Assembly (NCBI RefSeq): GCF_009914755.1
Contig: NC_060925.1
Reading direction: 5' to 3' (one strand)
Origin: the human T2T-CHM13v2.0 reference genome, Homo sapiens
DNA length: 64,000 nucleotides
Shown: positions 28,155 through 30,664 of the stretch, piece by piece
How the letters are laid out: every line of letters starts with the position of its first letter
Position numbering within the stretch: position 1 is the stretch's first letter
Translations under genes and position numbers: made by a program
Notes under the pieces: model-generated
Told to the model about the DNA's origin: nothing
The model's input: the letters and a program-made list of their open reading frames with translations, nothing else
Databases searched by the model: none

Positions 28155-29400
28155 AAATTCCAGGAGAAGTTAGGCCCAAAGTTTGGGATTTATTTTTCTC
28201 CTTTTCCCTTTTCTTTCTGCTCCATACAGGGGAATCTGTCTCTGTCTCTCTCTTTTCCTTTCCAACTCAAGACCCTTGGTGGACTATGCCTAAACACAGA
28301 AGCAACTGCAGGTTTCTGGCCATGGTTGGTGAAACTAAGGGGTTCCCATATGGAGGTGCCTAACCGCCACCACCCTGTTCGCTTAAGGGACCAGGGTTGT
28401 TTTTTTTTCTTCCCCCTTTCTTTTTCAGTCTTTCAGCCACTATTTCCTAGTAGCTCTTTGGAAATTGAGGGCAATTGGCTGGGGTCATTCCCTGGTATTG
28501 CCTGAAGGCCAAGGAGTGAATGGGAATAATTGCCCTAACTGGAAGGGGAAAGGACTCTTTTTTAAAAAAATATTTTCTGCTTGTGGTCCCTGGTCCCTAC
28601 ATGTGATCCAGTGCAGAGCAAACTCACACGTTTCAGGTGACTTAAACCATTTTTTTATGCTAAATTCTTTCCTTCCCCTATTCAACTGGCTAAGGGCAAA
28701 AGAAGCCTACCCAGCCTCCAGTTCCTATCATTAAAGTTCATGGAATGGGAAACATGGGAAAGCGTGGCCTTAACAAATTATAAGGATGCTAAAAGTTGGA
28801 GATTACACCCAGGTACCGAGAGAAAGCTCATAGTAGGCTCTGGAGGGAAAGCATGCAAAGTGGCACCTGTGCCCACCTAAGGTCAGAGACTTGTAATACT
28901 CTAAGATTGGACCCCACAGGAGGACGGATGCTCCAGGGGATCCTACAGACCTCAACCTCCCTGAAGGGGATGCTCTTGGCAGAGGTTCTGAGGTCTAGTA
29001 ATAAGCCCTCCTTATAATTTTCTCTCACAGTTGCAATGCTGTTTGGACCCAACATTGTTTGGAATCTGGAGTTTACCGTTGAATGAGAAAGTGGAATGGC
29101 ATTGCATGTATCCAGGCTTTTGTGCTGCTGTTCTAAGAAGGGAGCCTGGTTAATGTGTGACACTCTCCTTTGGTGCTGTTTGGAGCCCCAGCACTCTTTG
29201 GAGTCTGGGGAAATTCGGCCTTTAAAAATCAAATTGCCATGGAGACTGCCTTACGTGAAATTTTGGTTCACAGCCTTCATTGGATTATCTATTGGTGCAA
29301 ACAAAGTAAAAACAACGAGCTTGTATTACTGTCTCATGGCTAAGGTTCCAAGCTATTGGATCTTTGTTTGTGTGTGTATCTACATGTCTTTGTATTGCTG

Positions 29401-30078
29401 TGAGAAATGGGAAAGTTCTTCTTCAAAGATTATAAAAAGTCATAATTTCTTCTTATAACACTGTTAACCACTATTAGTGTGTACATATGTGTGTGTGTAT
29501 ATATATACACATATATATATTTGATATATATACATATATATTTGATATATATATACACATATATATTTGATATATATATACACATATATATCTGATATAT
29601 ATATGTGTATATATATATACACATATATATATCTGATATATATGTGTATATATATATATATTCCAAATCAGCTGTCCTAGCTTGCTCCGGCATACCTGGA
29701 CAGAACTAGGCAAGCCCCAGCCCATAGTGCATGCCATTCCTTATTTGGAGATTCTTCCTTAACTATCCCTAGATAACTTCCTTTTCTTTCTTTGTTCTGT
29801 TCCCCTTACCTAATTAAGAAAGTTTTAAGCTAATAGCCACAATCGGGTAAAGTGTAAAGTGTGAGGTCCTATTCCAGCCAGTGGAAACTGGACACAGCAG
29901 TAGGGTAAATGCATCAGATTATAAATAACTCTGTCTCCTTTGTTCGGTGTTCTCTTGTGGCTGGACAGCTACTGAGTAGCACCCTTTCTGCAGAAAGTAA
30001 AGCTCGCCTTGCTGAGAGATCATTTGTTCCTGCATTAATTCTTTTTTTTTTGTGACACCGAAATCTTAATTCACAACA
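29401..30078 (+). mobile_element. HERV-K (class II)-type LTR, tentatively LTR14-like, containing a TA-rich microsatellite
   Basis: TG...CA ends (TGAGAAATGG...TTCACAACA); TATAAATA near 29920; AGTAAA polyA-like signal near 29996; followed by a Lys1,2 PBS; 6-bp TSD TTGCTG/TTGCTA around the composite unit. Confidence 0.75.
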
Positions 30079-30081
30079 ATT

Positions 30082-30157
30082 TGGCACCAAACGTGGGGCT
30101 CAAACCCATGACCCTGAGATTAAGAGTCTCATGCTCTACCGACTGAGCTAGCTGGGC
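30082..30157 (-). tRNA. tRNA-Lys(CTT) retrocopy/pseudogene with encoded CCA
   Basis: Reverse complement is GCCCAGCTAGCTCAGTCGGTAGAGCATGAGACTCTTAATCTCAGGGTCATGGGTTTGAGCCCCACGTTTGGTGCCA; anticodon CTT; B-box TTCGA changed to TTTGA; most differences from Lys1,2 are CpG decay. Confidence 0.92.
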
Positions 30158-30664
30158 TTTTGCAACACCAAAAACTTCATTCCCAACATTGCTATCTCAT
30201 GGCTAAGGTTCCAAGCTATTGGATCTTTGTTTGTGTGTGGGTATATACATGTCTTTTGTACTGCTATCTCATGGCTAAGGTTCCAAGCTATTGGATCTTC
30301 ATTTGTGTGTGTATACATGTCTATATGTGTTTATTTGTATGTACACTTATTGTTCCATGTTGTGTCTACCAAATTGGCTTATAAGTAAAAGAGGGCTTAT
30401 AAATTAAGTAAATAAGCCTAAGCAATTTTCAAGTTCACATGACTTAAGTGCAACTTTACTAAGCAAGCTAGCTTTAAAATTATTGGAATAAAAGTAAAAA
30501 TGCCTTCAGAACTGTCAGCATACATTTTGTCTGAATTTTATGTTTGTCTTTGCTAGATATTTTGAGATGTCCGTGTTTGGCGTGGAAGGTTATAAAACTA
30601 TAAACCCAGCCAAAACAAAATAATCTTGGTTTGTGTGCTTTCTTTTGACAAATGTGAGTAATTT

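What the first reader, a model, noticed from the sequence alone, without database searches (positions are those of the whole stretch)
29395..30194. LTR + whole primer tRNA + duplicated U5 end, integrated as one unit
Seen in sequence: TSD TTGCTG (29395-29400); LTR (29401-30078, ending TTTTGTGACACCGAAATCTTAATTCACAACA); ATT; then the Lys1,2 PBS TGGCACCAAACGTGGGGC. The PBS does not stop at 18 nt but runs through the whole antisense tRNA-Lys(CTT) to its 5' G (30082-30157). A second copy of the LTR's last 31 nt follows (30158-30188, TTTTGCAACACCAAAAACTTCATTCCCAACA; 25/31 identical, three mismatches being CpG decay of GCGACACCG), then TSD TTGCTA. Established: plus-strand strong-stop synthesis normally halts at m1A58 of the primer tRNA, integrase needs CA-ended LTR termini, and HERV-K leaves 6-bp TSDs. 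Inference: RT read through the entire tRNA, then jumped back onto U5, giving an ~790-bp mini-element with a usable CA end. This would be an integrase-mediated route to tRNA pseudogenes, distinct from L1 retrocopying. It could be a one-off event or a small replicating family; I cannot tell whether it has been described.
Basis: partly seen in the sequence, partly recalled or inferred. Interest (0 to 1): 0.85.

Follow-up and report, generated by a model that had tools for sequence, protein, structure and literature searches.

The report
Retroviral LTR with copied primer tRNA
An ancient retrovirus copied its whole tRNA primer by mistake, and the resulting stub (one LTR, the tRNA, a scrap of LTR end) was still pasted into the germline; it is one of about eleven such fossils in the human genome, and it explains an annotated "tRNA gene".

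Summary
Window 29399-30078 is an LTR. ATT follows, then a complete antisense tRNA-Lys(CTT) with its CCA (30082-30157), then a 31-nt second copy of the LTR terminus (30158-30188).

- **Boundary and TSD:** The target-site duplication is therefore a perfect 4-bp TTGC (29395-98 and 30189-92), not 6 bp.
- **Family:** it is not HERV-K(HML). Other copies mostly carry 4-bp TSDs. A provirus of the family has a Lys(CTT) PBS and a gamma-type Env TM. It is a class-I-like ERV primed by tRNA-Lys.

Plus-strand synthesis read through the primer tRNA, switched back to U5, and the product was integrated. A genome scan found 11 loci where an LTR end is followed by CCA plus 63-76 nt of antisense tRNA-Lys(CTT).
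- Four have a U5/LTR tail (10, 31, 52 and about 403 nt) and a 4-6-bp TSD.
- Two tail-less ones look joined without integrase.
- One provirus shows RT leaving the tRNA 5' end for 28S rRNA at an 8-nt microhomology.

tRNA-His and tRNA-Pro controls gave none. The loci are independent events, not a replicating family. No description was found in ten literature searches.

The parts
29332..29391 (.). Host tandem-repeat unit to the left of the insertion (about 72-bp period).
   Evidence: this stretch matches 30195-30256 (95% over 62 nt) and 30267-30314 (96% over 48 nt).
29395..29398 (.). Left copy of the 4-bp target-site duplication, TTGC.
   Evidence: sequence. The LTR boundary was fixed. The joined pre-insertion site is in register with the other host repeat-unit junctions.
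29399..30078 (+). Complete LTR (680 bp, TG...CA) of a tRNA-Lys(CTT)-primed, class-I-like ERV family.
   Evidence: many genomic copies at 84-90% identity; boundaries and 4-bp TSDs of other copies; a provirus of the family has a Lys PBS and a TLV_coat Env TM.
29494..29661 (.). TA/TG-rich microsatellite expansion inside the LTR. It makes this copy about 160 bp longer than most.
   Evidence: TRF rows, 29494-29661; most other copies are 491-552 bp.
30079..30081 (+). ATT spacer between the LTR end (CA) and the PBS, as in the family's provirus.
   Evidence: L021 reads ...ccaaca|ATT|TGGTGCTCCAACGTGGGGC.
30082..30157 (-). Complete tRNA-Lys(CTT) with encoded CCA, antisense to the LTR. The first 18 nt on the + strand are the PBS. 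It is annotated TRK-CTT7-1.
   Evidence: ARAGORN. (Rfam tRNA, 50.0 bits, against 65.1 and 65.4 for two real genes); 5 differences from the gene sequence, 4 of them at CpG.
30158..30188 (+). Second copy of the last 31 nt of the LTR (U5 end), ending in CA. This is the right-hand attachment end of the insertion.
   Evidence: It is identical to the termini of family copies L003, L017 and L021.
30189..30192 (.). Right copy of the 4-bp target-site duplication, TTGC.
30195..30314 (.). Two further host tandem-repeat units to the right of the insertion.

Best explanation
This is a fossil of a failed reverse transcription that was integrated anyway. The steps below are marked as shown or inferred.

1. 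**Priming (shown).** A class-I-like endogenous retrovirus used tRNA-Lys(CTT) as its primer.
2. **Read-through (shown).** Plus-strand strong-stop synthesis starts at the polypurine tract and copies U3-R-U5. It normally stops 18 nt into the primer, before m1A58. Here it did not stop, and copied the whole tRNA to its first base.
3. **Template switch (inferred).** The nascent 3' end switched back onto the U5 part of minus-strand DNA, 31 nt from that template's 5' end, and ran off it. This made a second, correct CA-bearing U5 terminus.
4. **Integration (end state shown; the intermediate forms are inferred).** The molecule now had a U3 end on the left and a U5 end on the right. The viral integrase inserted it with the family's usual 4-bp duplication (TTGC).

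The result is about 790 bp: LTR, ATT, antisense tRNA with CCA, and a 31-nt U5 tail. It has no function today. The annotated gene TRK-CTT7-1 is this copied primer.
For: **The window element**
- Anatomy as described.
- The tail is an exact family LTR terminus.
- The ATT spacer and the Lys(CTT) PBS match the family's provirus L021.
- The 4-bp TTGC duplication fits the family. Of 13 independent other insertions, 6 have a perfect 4-bp TSD, 4 match at 3 of 4, 2 have a perfect 5-bp TSD and 1 has none.

**Recurrence**
- A 35-place pattern (TGG plus antisense tRNA-Lys-CTT, up to 3 mismatches) gave 22 hits against 0 in the control.
- The 12 hits that start TGG or TGA lie in 11 loci. All sit directly behind an LTR end plus a 2-3-nt spacer.
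- The 10 other hits start with other triplets. Nine of them coincide with ARAGORN-called tRNA-Lys genes in the overlapping loci. None starts TGG.

**Four loci with a tail and a short TSD**

| Locus | tRNA copied | Tail | TSD |
|---|---|---|---|
| Window | 76 nt | 31 nt | TTGC |
| C18:46.28M | 72 nt | 52 nt | CTTCCC |
| C1:39.37M | 66-69 nt | about 403 nt | AAGTG |
| C7:12.73M | 63 nt | 10 nt | AGAAAC |

**Direct evidence for run-off and template switching**
- In a provirus at C19:38.12M, the 76-nt tRNA copy is followed by antisense 28S rRNA. The junction lies at an 8-nt stretch that the tRNA 5' end and the rDNA share.

**Possible bypass scar**
- The only non-CpG column with 3 changes among the 11 tRNA copies is A58. 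All three are transversions.
Against: - No orthologous empty site could be examined. Simultaneity of LTR, tRNA and tail is inferred from anatomy and recurrence, not seen.
- The insertion lies in a host tandem repeat of about 72 bp, so a duplication of 4 + 72 bp cannot be formally excluded. One tail-less relative does have a direct repeat of about 52 bp.
- There is no microhomology at the tRNA-to-tail junction in the window. The other three have 1, 2 and 4 nt.
- The tail is nearly family-typical, while the LTR's own last 31 nt carry 5 departures from it. I cannot explain this asymmetry beyond chance or a second template.
- The window copy has the normal T opposite A58, so it carries no bypass scar itself.
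- How the second strand of such a molecule is completed is unknown.
Confidence: 0.8

Rival explanations
1. A full provirus was integrated whose 5' leader already carried the tRNA copy and the U5 tail. Later homologous recombination between the short tail and the U5 end of the 3' LTR deleted the interior.
For: Solo LTRs arise this way as a rule (established knowledge). The end product would look identical, with the same TSD. C1:39.37M shows that such tails can recombine: its middle copy is a clean chimera of the two outer ones.
Against: Homology of 31 nt (or 10 nt at C7:12.73M) competes with about 500-1000 nt of full LTR homology, and recombination between the full LTRs would erase the tRNA. 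None of the 11 loci is a provirus with LTR-tRNA-tail-PBS-interior.
Confidence: 0.08
2. The read-through strong-stop DNA was captured by host repair, or by a one-ended integrase reaction, and made a long duplication (4 + about 72 bp) of a host sequence. This is how the tail-less relatives appear to have been inserted.
For: C19:55.0M has LTR plus 73 nt of tRNA, no tail, and flanking direct repeats of about 52 bp at 96% identity. C7:98.37M has no TSD at all inside what I recognise by recall as one Alu. The window's flanks are 62-nt direct repeats at 95% identity. In yeast, Ty1 cDNA intermediates are captured at breaks (PMC11372161, passages read).
Against: The window element has a proper CA-ended U5 terminus and an exact 4-bp duplication of the length typical for its family. 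A third repeat unit and a partial unit exist beside the two flanking ones, so the host repeat pre-dates the insertion at least in part.
Confidence: 0.06
3. L1-mediated retrocopy of a tRNA or of a chimeric transcript that happened to land next to, or to include, an LTR.
For: L1-type tRNA retrocopies exist in this genome. A tRNA-His copy (C20:59.1M) and three tRNA-Lys(TTT) copies carry A-tails.
Against: There is no poly-A and no long TSD. The tRNA abuts the LTR at the exact PBS position with the family's spacer, and a second LTR terminus follows.
Confidence: 0.02
4. Chance juxtaposition: an LTR inserted next to a pre-existing tRNA-Lys gene or pseudogene.
For: The locus is annotated as a tRNA gene (hub table), and ARAGORN and Rfam call it.
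Against: The encoded CCA is absent from all 10 gene-type hits. The junction is exactly that of a PBS. The same junction recurs at 11 loci with three LTR families. The tail and TSD enclose LTR and tRNA together.
Confidence: 0.01

Closest known systems
m1A58 plus-strand strong-stop and its failure (HIV-1; Fukuda et al. 2021, PMC8599865, passages read)
   Same: The same step of reverse transcription: RT copying the primer tRNA beyond the 18-nt PBS when the stop at position 58 (or 54) fails.
   Different: That paper states that such extended products cannot complete plus-strand transfer or be integrated. Here they are found integrated in the germline, rescued by a second U5 end or joined without one.
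tRNA or PPT primer sequences inserted at 2-LTR circle junctions of HIV-1 (PMC5618025, passages read). A cloned MLV circle with a tRNA between the LTRs (Colicelli and Goff 1986) is recalled only and was not seen.
   Same: Aberrant viral DNA ends that retain primer-tRNA-derived sequence after U5.
   Different: Those are unintegrated circles from cell culture, with U5-tRNA-U3. Here the order is U5-tRNA-U5 end, in chromosomal, germline-fixed insertions with TSDs.
Strong-stop-DNA hypothesis for the origin of tRNA-Lys-derived SINEs
   Same: A tRNA-Lys joined through CCA to retroviral U5 sequence and placed in the genome. On the minus strand the window reads tRNA-CCA-AAT-U5-R-U3.
   Different: That hypothesis concerns minus-strand strong-stop DNA as the ancestor of a replicating SINE. 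The window holds a whole LTR (a plus-strand product) and shows no sign of amplification.
Ty1 cDNA replication intermediates captured at chromosome breaks in yeast (PMC11372161, passages read)
   Same: LTR-region cDNA intermediates with cDNA-only nucleotides inserted without integrase. This is a good analogue for the tail-less relatives (C19:55.0M, C7:98.37M).
   Different: The window element has two attachment ends and a family-typical 4-bp TSD, which fits integrase rather than end joining.
LTR-mediated retroposition by template switching (Tan et al. 2016, PMC5131818; search listing and start of abstract only)
   Same: Retroviral or LTR-element RT switching to cellular RNAs and carrying them into the genome. 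The 28S rRNA pieces in the C19:38.12M provirus are of this kind.
   Different: Those are mRNA retrocopies between two LTRs. Here the captured RNA is the primer itself, entered by read-through rather than by a switch.
Helenus TRIMs: non-autonomous LTR elements with tRNA-like sequence (Kojima 2024, PMC10886601, abstract and passages read)
   Same: Small LTR-type insertions that add tRNA-like sequences to genomes and mislead tRNA gene prediction. Animal Helenus gives 4-bp TSDs.
   Different: In Helenus the tRNA-like part lies inside both LTRs, is unrelated to the primer, and the elements have PBS and PPT and replicate as families. The window has one LTR, the primer tRNA itself, no PPT, and is a single copy.

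Membership tests
   TSD is 4 bp (TTGC). Among 13 other independent insertions of the family, 6 are a perfect 4 bp, 4 match 3 of 4, 2 are 5 bp and 1 has none. Group II gives 5-6 bp and group I 4 bp in Table 1 of PMC11905727.
   The provirus L021 of this LTR family has ATT followed by TGGTGCTCCAACGTGGGGC. Only this one provirus was examined.
   The only interior seen (872 bp, L021) holds an Env TM piece that matches Pfam TLV_coat (E 7.9e-07). No pol was available for this family.
Class I (gamma-like) ERV LTR | 4-bp TSD, TG...CA ends, gamma-type Env TM in the provirus | tested here: met
   The family name (Dfam or Repbase) could not be determined with these tools. Pol was not seen.
Ordinary recombinational solo LTR | The LTR alone between the two TSD copies | tested here: not met
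   110 extra bases (ATT, 76-nt tRNA copy, 31-nt tail) lie between the LTR end and the right TSD.
Genuine tRNA-Lys(CTT) gene (annotated TRK-CTT7-1) | CCA not encoded; own 5' leader and a T-run terminator; sequence like the expressed isodecoders | tested here: not met
   CCA is encoded, whereas 0 of 10 gene-type hits have it. The flanks are LTR sequence. There are 5 substitutions, including one in the B box as I read it. Rfam score is 50.0 bits against 65.1 and 65.4 for two real genes. Expression was not tested.
L1-mediated tRNA retropseudogene | A-rich tail and a 7-20-bp TSD, with no viral junction | tested here: not met
   No A-tail. The junction is the viral U5-spacer-PBS junction. Compare the A-tailed tRNA-His copy.
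Primer-tRNA read-through insertions (the class proposed here) | LTR end + family spacer + TGG + more than 18 nt of antisense primer tRNA reaching its 5' region | tested here: met
   76 of 76 nt in the window. 63-76 nt at ten other loci.
Primer-tRNA read-through insertions (the class proposed here) | Second LTR terminus after the tRNA, and a TSD of the length typical for the virus | tested here: met
   Met in the window and at 3 other loci. Six other loci have no tail, and one lies inside a provirus.

The most novel reading that the evidence does not exclude
Human DNA holds an unrecognised class of germline insertions made from plus-strand strong-stop DNA that read through the whole primer tRNA.
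- They were rescued for integrase by a template switch that rebuilt a U5 end, or were captured without one.
- In the controls run here (tRNA-His and tRNA-Pro none, tRNA-Lys(TTT) one candidate) the class is confined to viruses primed by tRNA-Lys(CTT), in two retroviral classes. This would point to a property of that tRNA, such as weaker or variable m1A58 blockage in the germline, rather than of one virus.
- The class accounts for at least six tRNA-Lys(CTT) 'genes' that tRNA finders call.
- It gives physical precedent for the old idea that tRNA-Lys SINEs began as integrated strong-stop DNA.
Probability: 0.45. Interest if true: 0.78.

Novelty: new variant of a known kind. Interest (0 to 1): 0.68.

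Why it matters
- **Retrovirology.** Textbook and recent experimental work treat read-through of the primer tRNA as a dead end that cannot be integrated (PMC8599865). These fossils show that it can be, and by which rescue routes: a rebuilt U5 end plus integrase, or end joining.
- **Natural record of RT behaviour.** They record RT run-off and microhomology-guided template switching, including capture of 28S rRNA. They may also record misincorporation opposite m1A58.
- **Annotation.** TRK-CTT7-1, and five other ARAGORN-called tRNA-Lys(CTT) loci, are copied primers and not genes.
- **Evolution.** They are the nearest thing yet to an observed intermediate for the strong-stop-DNA origin of tRNA-Lys-derived SINEs.

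Tried and rejected
**Approaches that led nowhere**
- Naming the LTR family: there is no Dfam or RepeatMasker here. Vargiu et al. (PMC4724089) and Frith (PMC11905727) gave no name for a Lys-primed group I family.
- Earlier findings of the scan were not open.
A tRNA family search returned places without loci. Twenty small fetches gave only Thr, Lys-TTT, Cys, Arg-TCG and Ala. The Arg-TCG 3' end does not match the Arg-type PBS quoted, so I did not use it. tRNA-His, tRNA-Pro and others were then found beside Lys genes in loci already held.
- TRF did not report the 72-bp host repeat, because the insertion splits it. It was seen by BLAST of the flanks.

**Ideas considered and dropped**
- A replicating LTR-tRNA family: only the window matched the junction query end to end (40 of 55 candidates scored).
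- RT-made double read-through at C1:39.37M: rejected. The middle copy is a chimera of the outer two with no private change, so it is a recent unequal crossover.
- Right-end TSDs of four tail-less loci (C5:26.3M, C15:93.5M, C16:2.95M, C11:54.7M): nothing convincing by eye or by BLAST.
- That the tail and the LTR end came from two different co-packaged genomes, because the tail is family-typical and the LTR end is not: the counts are too small to decide.

**Literature**
- Ten full-text searches found no description of LTR + whole primer tRNA + U5 tail insertions.
- Subscription-journal papers and bioRxiv supplements were not searchable, so prior description cannot be excluded.
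Full report
**1. What is in the window**

The sequence reads, left to right:

| Piece | Window coordinates |
|---|---|
| Host DNA ending in TTGC | 29395-29398 |
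| LTR, from TGTGAGAAATGG to TTCACAACA | 29399-30078 |
| ATT spacer | 30079-30081 |
| Reverse complement of a complete tRNA-Lys(CTT), starting with TGG (its CCA) and ending at the complement of its first base | 30082-30157 |
| TTTTGCAACACCAAAAACTTCATTCCCAACA, a second LTR end | 30158-30188 |
| TTGC, then host DNA | 30189-30192 |

- ARAGORN calls the tRNA over all 76 nt.
- The 31-mer has one match in the window at up to 3 mismatches, against none in 100 shuffles.
- The exact 31-mer is the 3' terminus of three other copies of this LTR family, L003, L017 and L021. A further copy at C12:50133216-246 also matches exactly.
- It differs from the adjacent LTR's own end at 6 of 31 places.

**2. Two corrections**

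- **LTR start.** In 16 of 16 other copies whose 5' edge I located, TG precedes TGAGAAATGG. The LTR therefore starts at 29399.
- **TSD.** It is then a perfect 4-bp TTGC on both sides.
- **Family TSD length.** Among 13 independent other insertions of the family (three subtelomeric paralogues counted once): 6 have a perfect 4-bp TSD, 4 match at 3 of 4, 2 have a perfect 5-bp TSD and 1 has none.
- **Family class.** A short provirus of the family (L021, C2:61.966M) has CA, ATT and a Lys(CTT) PBS. Its 872-bp interior holds an Env TM piece that matches Pfam TLV_coat (E 7.9e-07).
- Four-bp TSDs go with group I ERVs and 5-6 bp with group II (Table 1 of PMC11905727).

The family is thus a class-I-like ERV primed by tRNA-Lys. 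It is not HERV-K(HML). I could not name it, because no Dfam tool was available.

**3. The host repeat**

- The insertion sits in a tandem repeat of about 72 bp. One unit lies to the left (29332-29391) and two to the right (30195-30256 and 30267-30314), at 95-96% identity.
- Removing the insertion and one TTGC gives tttgtaTTGCtatctcatgg. This has the same structure as the intact unit junction further right (ttgtactgctatctcatgg). The 4-bp duplication is therefore extra to the host periodicity.
- Because of the repeat, a duplication of 4 + 72 bp cannot be excluded without an empty site.

**4. It is not a one-off**

A 155-nt junction query found only the window end to end (40 of 55 candidates scored). 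However, several tRNA-Lys copies began exactly at the spacer.

A 35-place pattern (TGG plus antisense tRNA-Lys-CTT, up to 3 mismatches) gave 22 hits against 0 for the reversed control.
- Ten hits begin with triplets other than TGG or TGA. Nine of them coincide with ARAGORN-called tRNA-Lys genes in the overlapping loci.
- Twelve hits, in 11 loci, begin TGG or TGA. Every one follows an LTR end plus a 2-3-nt spacer.

Three LTR families are involved:
- the window's family;
- a family of about 990 bp that starts TGTGGGG (six loci, plus a U5 stub at a seventh);
- a family of about 1010 bp that starts TGTTGCGGGAAG (three loci).

The last two give 5-6-bp TSDs. The one provirus seen has a protease followed by a G-patch, so they are class II.

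**5. The four tailed elements**

| Locus | tRNA copied | Tail | TSD |
|---|---|---|---|
| Window | 76 nt | 31 nt | TTGC |
| C18:46.28M | 72 nt | 52 nt (4 differences from its own LTR end) | perfect CTTCCC |
| C7:12.73M | 63 nt | 10 nt | perfect AGAAAC |
| C1:39.37M | 66-69 nt | about 400 nt of LTR | AAGTG |

- At C1:39.37M the unit of tail plus tRNA is present twice. The middle copy equals the last copy at all 6 informative sites in columns 1-112. It equals the first copy at all informative sites from column 197 on. It has no private change. This marks a recent unequal crossover, so the original element had a single tail of about 403 nt.
- Microhomology at the tRNA-to-tail junctions is 0 nt (window), 2, 1 and 4 nt.

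**6. The tail-less loci**

- **C19:55.0M:** LTR plus 73 nt of tRNA lie between direct repeats of about 52 bp at 96% identity.
- **C7:98.37M:** LTR plus about 66 nt of tRNA interrupt what I recognise, from recall, as one antisense Alu. There is no duplication and at most 3 nt are lost.
- These two look like strong-stop DNA joined without a proper U5 end.
- **C5:26.3M, C15:93.5M, C16:2.95M and C11:54.7M:** the right ends remain unresolved. At C11:54.7M the LTR is 5'-truncated.

**7. A provirus that shows the switch**

At C19:38.12M a class II provirus has protease and G-patch upstream, and RNase H and integrase downstream. Its RT region is replaced by, in order:
- about 20 nt of U5 end;
- the spacer;
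- the full 76-nt antisense tRNA;
- three antisense pieces of 28S rRNA (Rfam LSU 155-162 bits; rDNA matches at 96% identity).

The first rRNA piece abuts the tRNA's first base where the rDNA reads GCCCGGCT (L084). The tRNA-Lys gene begins with the same 8 nt. RT therefore ran to the end of the tRNA and re-annealed by microhomology on another template. This is the step the window element requires.

**8. Properties of the copied tRNAs**

- All carry CCA (twice decayed to TCA). Both Lys(CTT) isodecoders occur.
- The window copy differs from the gene at 5 of 76 places, 4 of them at CpG.
- Copies end at tRNA positions 1 to 14.
- At non-CpG sites, 26 of 653 cells differ from the gene. The only such column with three changes is position 58, the m1A site: T>A twice and T>G once. 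All three are transversions, against 5 transversions in the other 642 cells. This fits misincorporation during bypass. An RT mismatch signature at m1A is on record (PMC4787781; search listing and start of abstract only). With 11 copies it is suggestive, not proof.
- The window copy has the normal base at position 58.
- ARAGORN calls a tRNA-Lys(ctt) at 6 of the 11 loci.
- Rfam gives the window copy 50.0 bits, against 65.1 and 65.4 for two real genes.

**9. Controls with other primers**

| Primer tRNA | Candidates scored | Result |
|---|---|---|
| tRNA-His(GTG) | 23 of 23 | One dispersed hit reaches the 3' end; it has an A-tail and no LTR |
| tRNA-Pro(AGG) | 25 of 25 | No dispersed hit reaches the 3' end |
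| tRNA-Lys(TTT) | 37 of 37 | Nine dispersed copies inspected; see below |

Of the nine tRNA-Lys(TTT) copies:
- one (C2:61.65M) has TGG plus about 46 nt of antisense tRNA behind a possible LTR end;
- three share a trailer and an A-tail;
- the rest lack CCA.

These searches see only matches longer than a PBS, and other primers (Arg, Glu, Leu, Phe) were not tested. As far as tested, the phenomenon is concentrated on tRNA-Lys(CTT), in two retroviral classes.

**10. Mechanism**

*Shown:*
- The primer was copied in full, as a mature tRNA, in the orientation and position of plus-strand strong-stop synthesis.
- A second U5 end follows.
- The whole insertion is bracketed by a duplication of the length typical for the family.
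- RT of such viruses switched templates at the tRNA 5' end.

*Inferred:*
- Once the tRNA had been copied, RNase H could remove it.
- The freed 3' end re-annealed on the U5 part of minus-strand DNA (its own, or that of the co-packaged genome). It then ran off the now tRNA-free 5' end and recreated a normal right-hand terminus.
- The minus strand, annealed at the PBS, completed the left LTR as usual.
- Integrase joined the two ends. Host replication or repair then fixed the short plus-strand version.
- The last two steps are speculation.

**11. Literature**

- Read-through beyond positions 58 and 54 is described as blocking plus-strand transfer and integration (PMC8599865, passages).
- tRNA and PPT sequences occur at HIV 2-LTR circle junctions (PMC5618025, passages).
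- Ty1 cDNA intermediates are captured at breaks in yeast (PMC11372161, passages).
- LTR-mediated retroposition by template switching is known (PMC5131818, listing only).
- Helenus TRIMs carry tRNA-like LTR parts that are not primer-derived (PMC10886601, abstract and passages).
- The strong-stop-DNA origin of tRNA-Lys SINEs, and a tRNA in a cloned MLV circle junction, are recalled only.
- Ten full-text searches found no account of germline LTR + whole primer tRNA + U5 tail insertions. Subscription journals are outside that library.

**12. Limits**

- No primate genomes and no repeat library were available.
Because of that, flanks of further candidates could not be read.
- The genome searches score only the best candidates, so 11 loci is a lower bound.

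Noticed in passing
L065 (G000:C19:38119343-38122377), raw 1217-1535: A class II provirus whose RT region is replaced by a U5 stub, the spacer, the whole primer tRNA and three shuffled antisense pieces of 28S rRNA. The tRNA-to-rRNA junction lies at a shared 8-nt GCCCGGCT. The entry into the U5 stub appears to use the shared letters AGGGGCA.
   Followed up: partly
L067/L068 (G000:C1:39.371-39.374M): LTR-tRNA-tail element in which the unit of tail plus tRNA (459 bp) is doubled. The middle copy is a clean chimera of the outer two with no private change, so this is a recent unequal crossover.
   Followed up: yes
L066 (G000:C19:55007835-55010869), 455-509 and 1571-1625: LTR plus 73 nt of primer tRNA without a U5 tail, flanked by direct repeats of about 52-55 bp at 96% identity. 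This is far too long for an integrase TSD.
   Followed up: partly
L062 (G000:C7:98369770-98372804), about 416-1566: LTR plus about 66 nt of primer tRNA inserted in what I take (by recall) to be one antisense Alu. There is no duplication and at most 3 nt are lost.
   Followed up: partly
tRNA copies at the 11 loci, position 58 (19th base of the antisense copy): Three of 11 copies carry a transversion exactly opposite m1A58 (T>A at C19:38.12M and C19:55.0M, T>G at C16:2.95M). No other non-CpG column has three changes.
   Followed up: partly
L116 (G000:C2:61652832-61653097): TGG plus about 46 nt of antisense tRNA-Lys(TTT) behind ...gtggcaaag. This is a possible read-through by a Lys3-primed ERV that stops near the anticodon stem. 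The upstream sequence was not identified.
   Followed up: no
L110, L112, L113 (C17:61.65M, C3:15.21M, C19:52.53M): Three dispersed tRNA-Lys(TTT)-like copies share about 45 nt of the same 3' trailer followed by an A-run. They look like L1-type retrocopies of a read-through Pol III transcript, or a small SINE-like family.
   Followed up: no
Window 29494-29661: TA/TG microsatellite expansion inside the LTR. Three other copies (L002, L003, L004) also match into this part of the LTR, while most copies are about 500-550 bp.
   Followed up: no
L006, L009, L011, L012, L014-L016, L018, L019, L022, L023, L025, L027, L029, L030 (mostly within 5-12 kb of contig ends): More than a dozen copies of the window's LTR family share the same right flank (GCACTCTGAGAAAA/CC...). 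They lie near chromosome ends, so one insertion was spread by subtelomeric duplication. One copy lies at C2:114.04M.
   Followed up: no
Window 29322-29398 and 30189-30335: Host tandem repeat of about 72 bp (tctcatggctaaggttccaagctattgg...), split by the insertion. TRF did not list it.
   Followed up: partly
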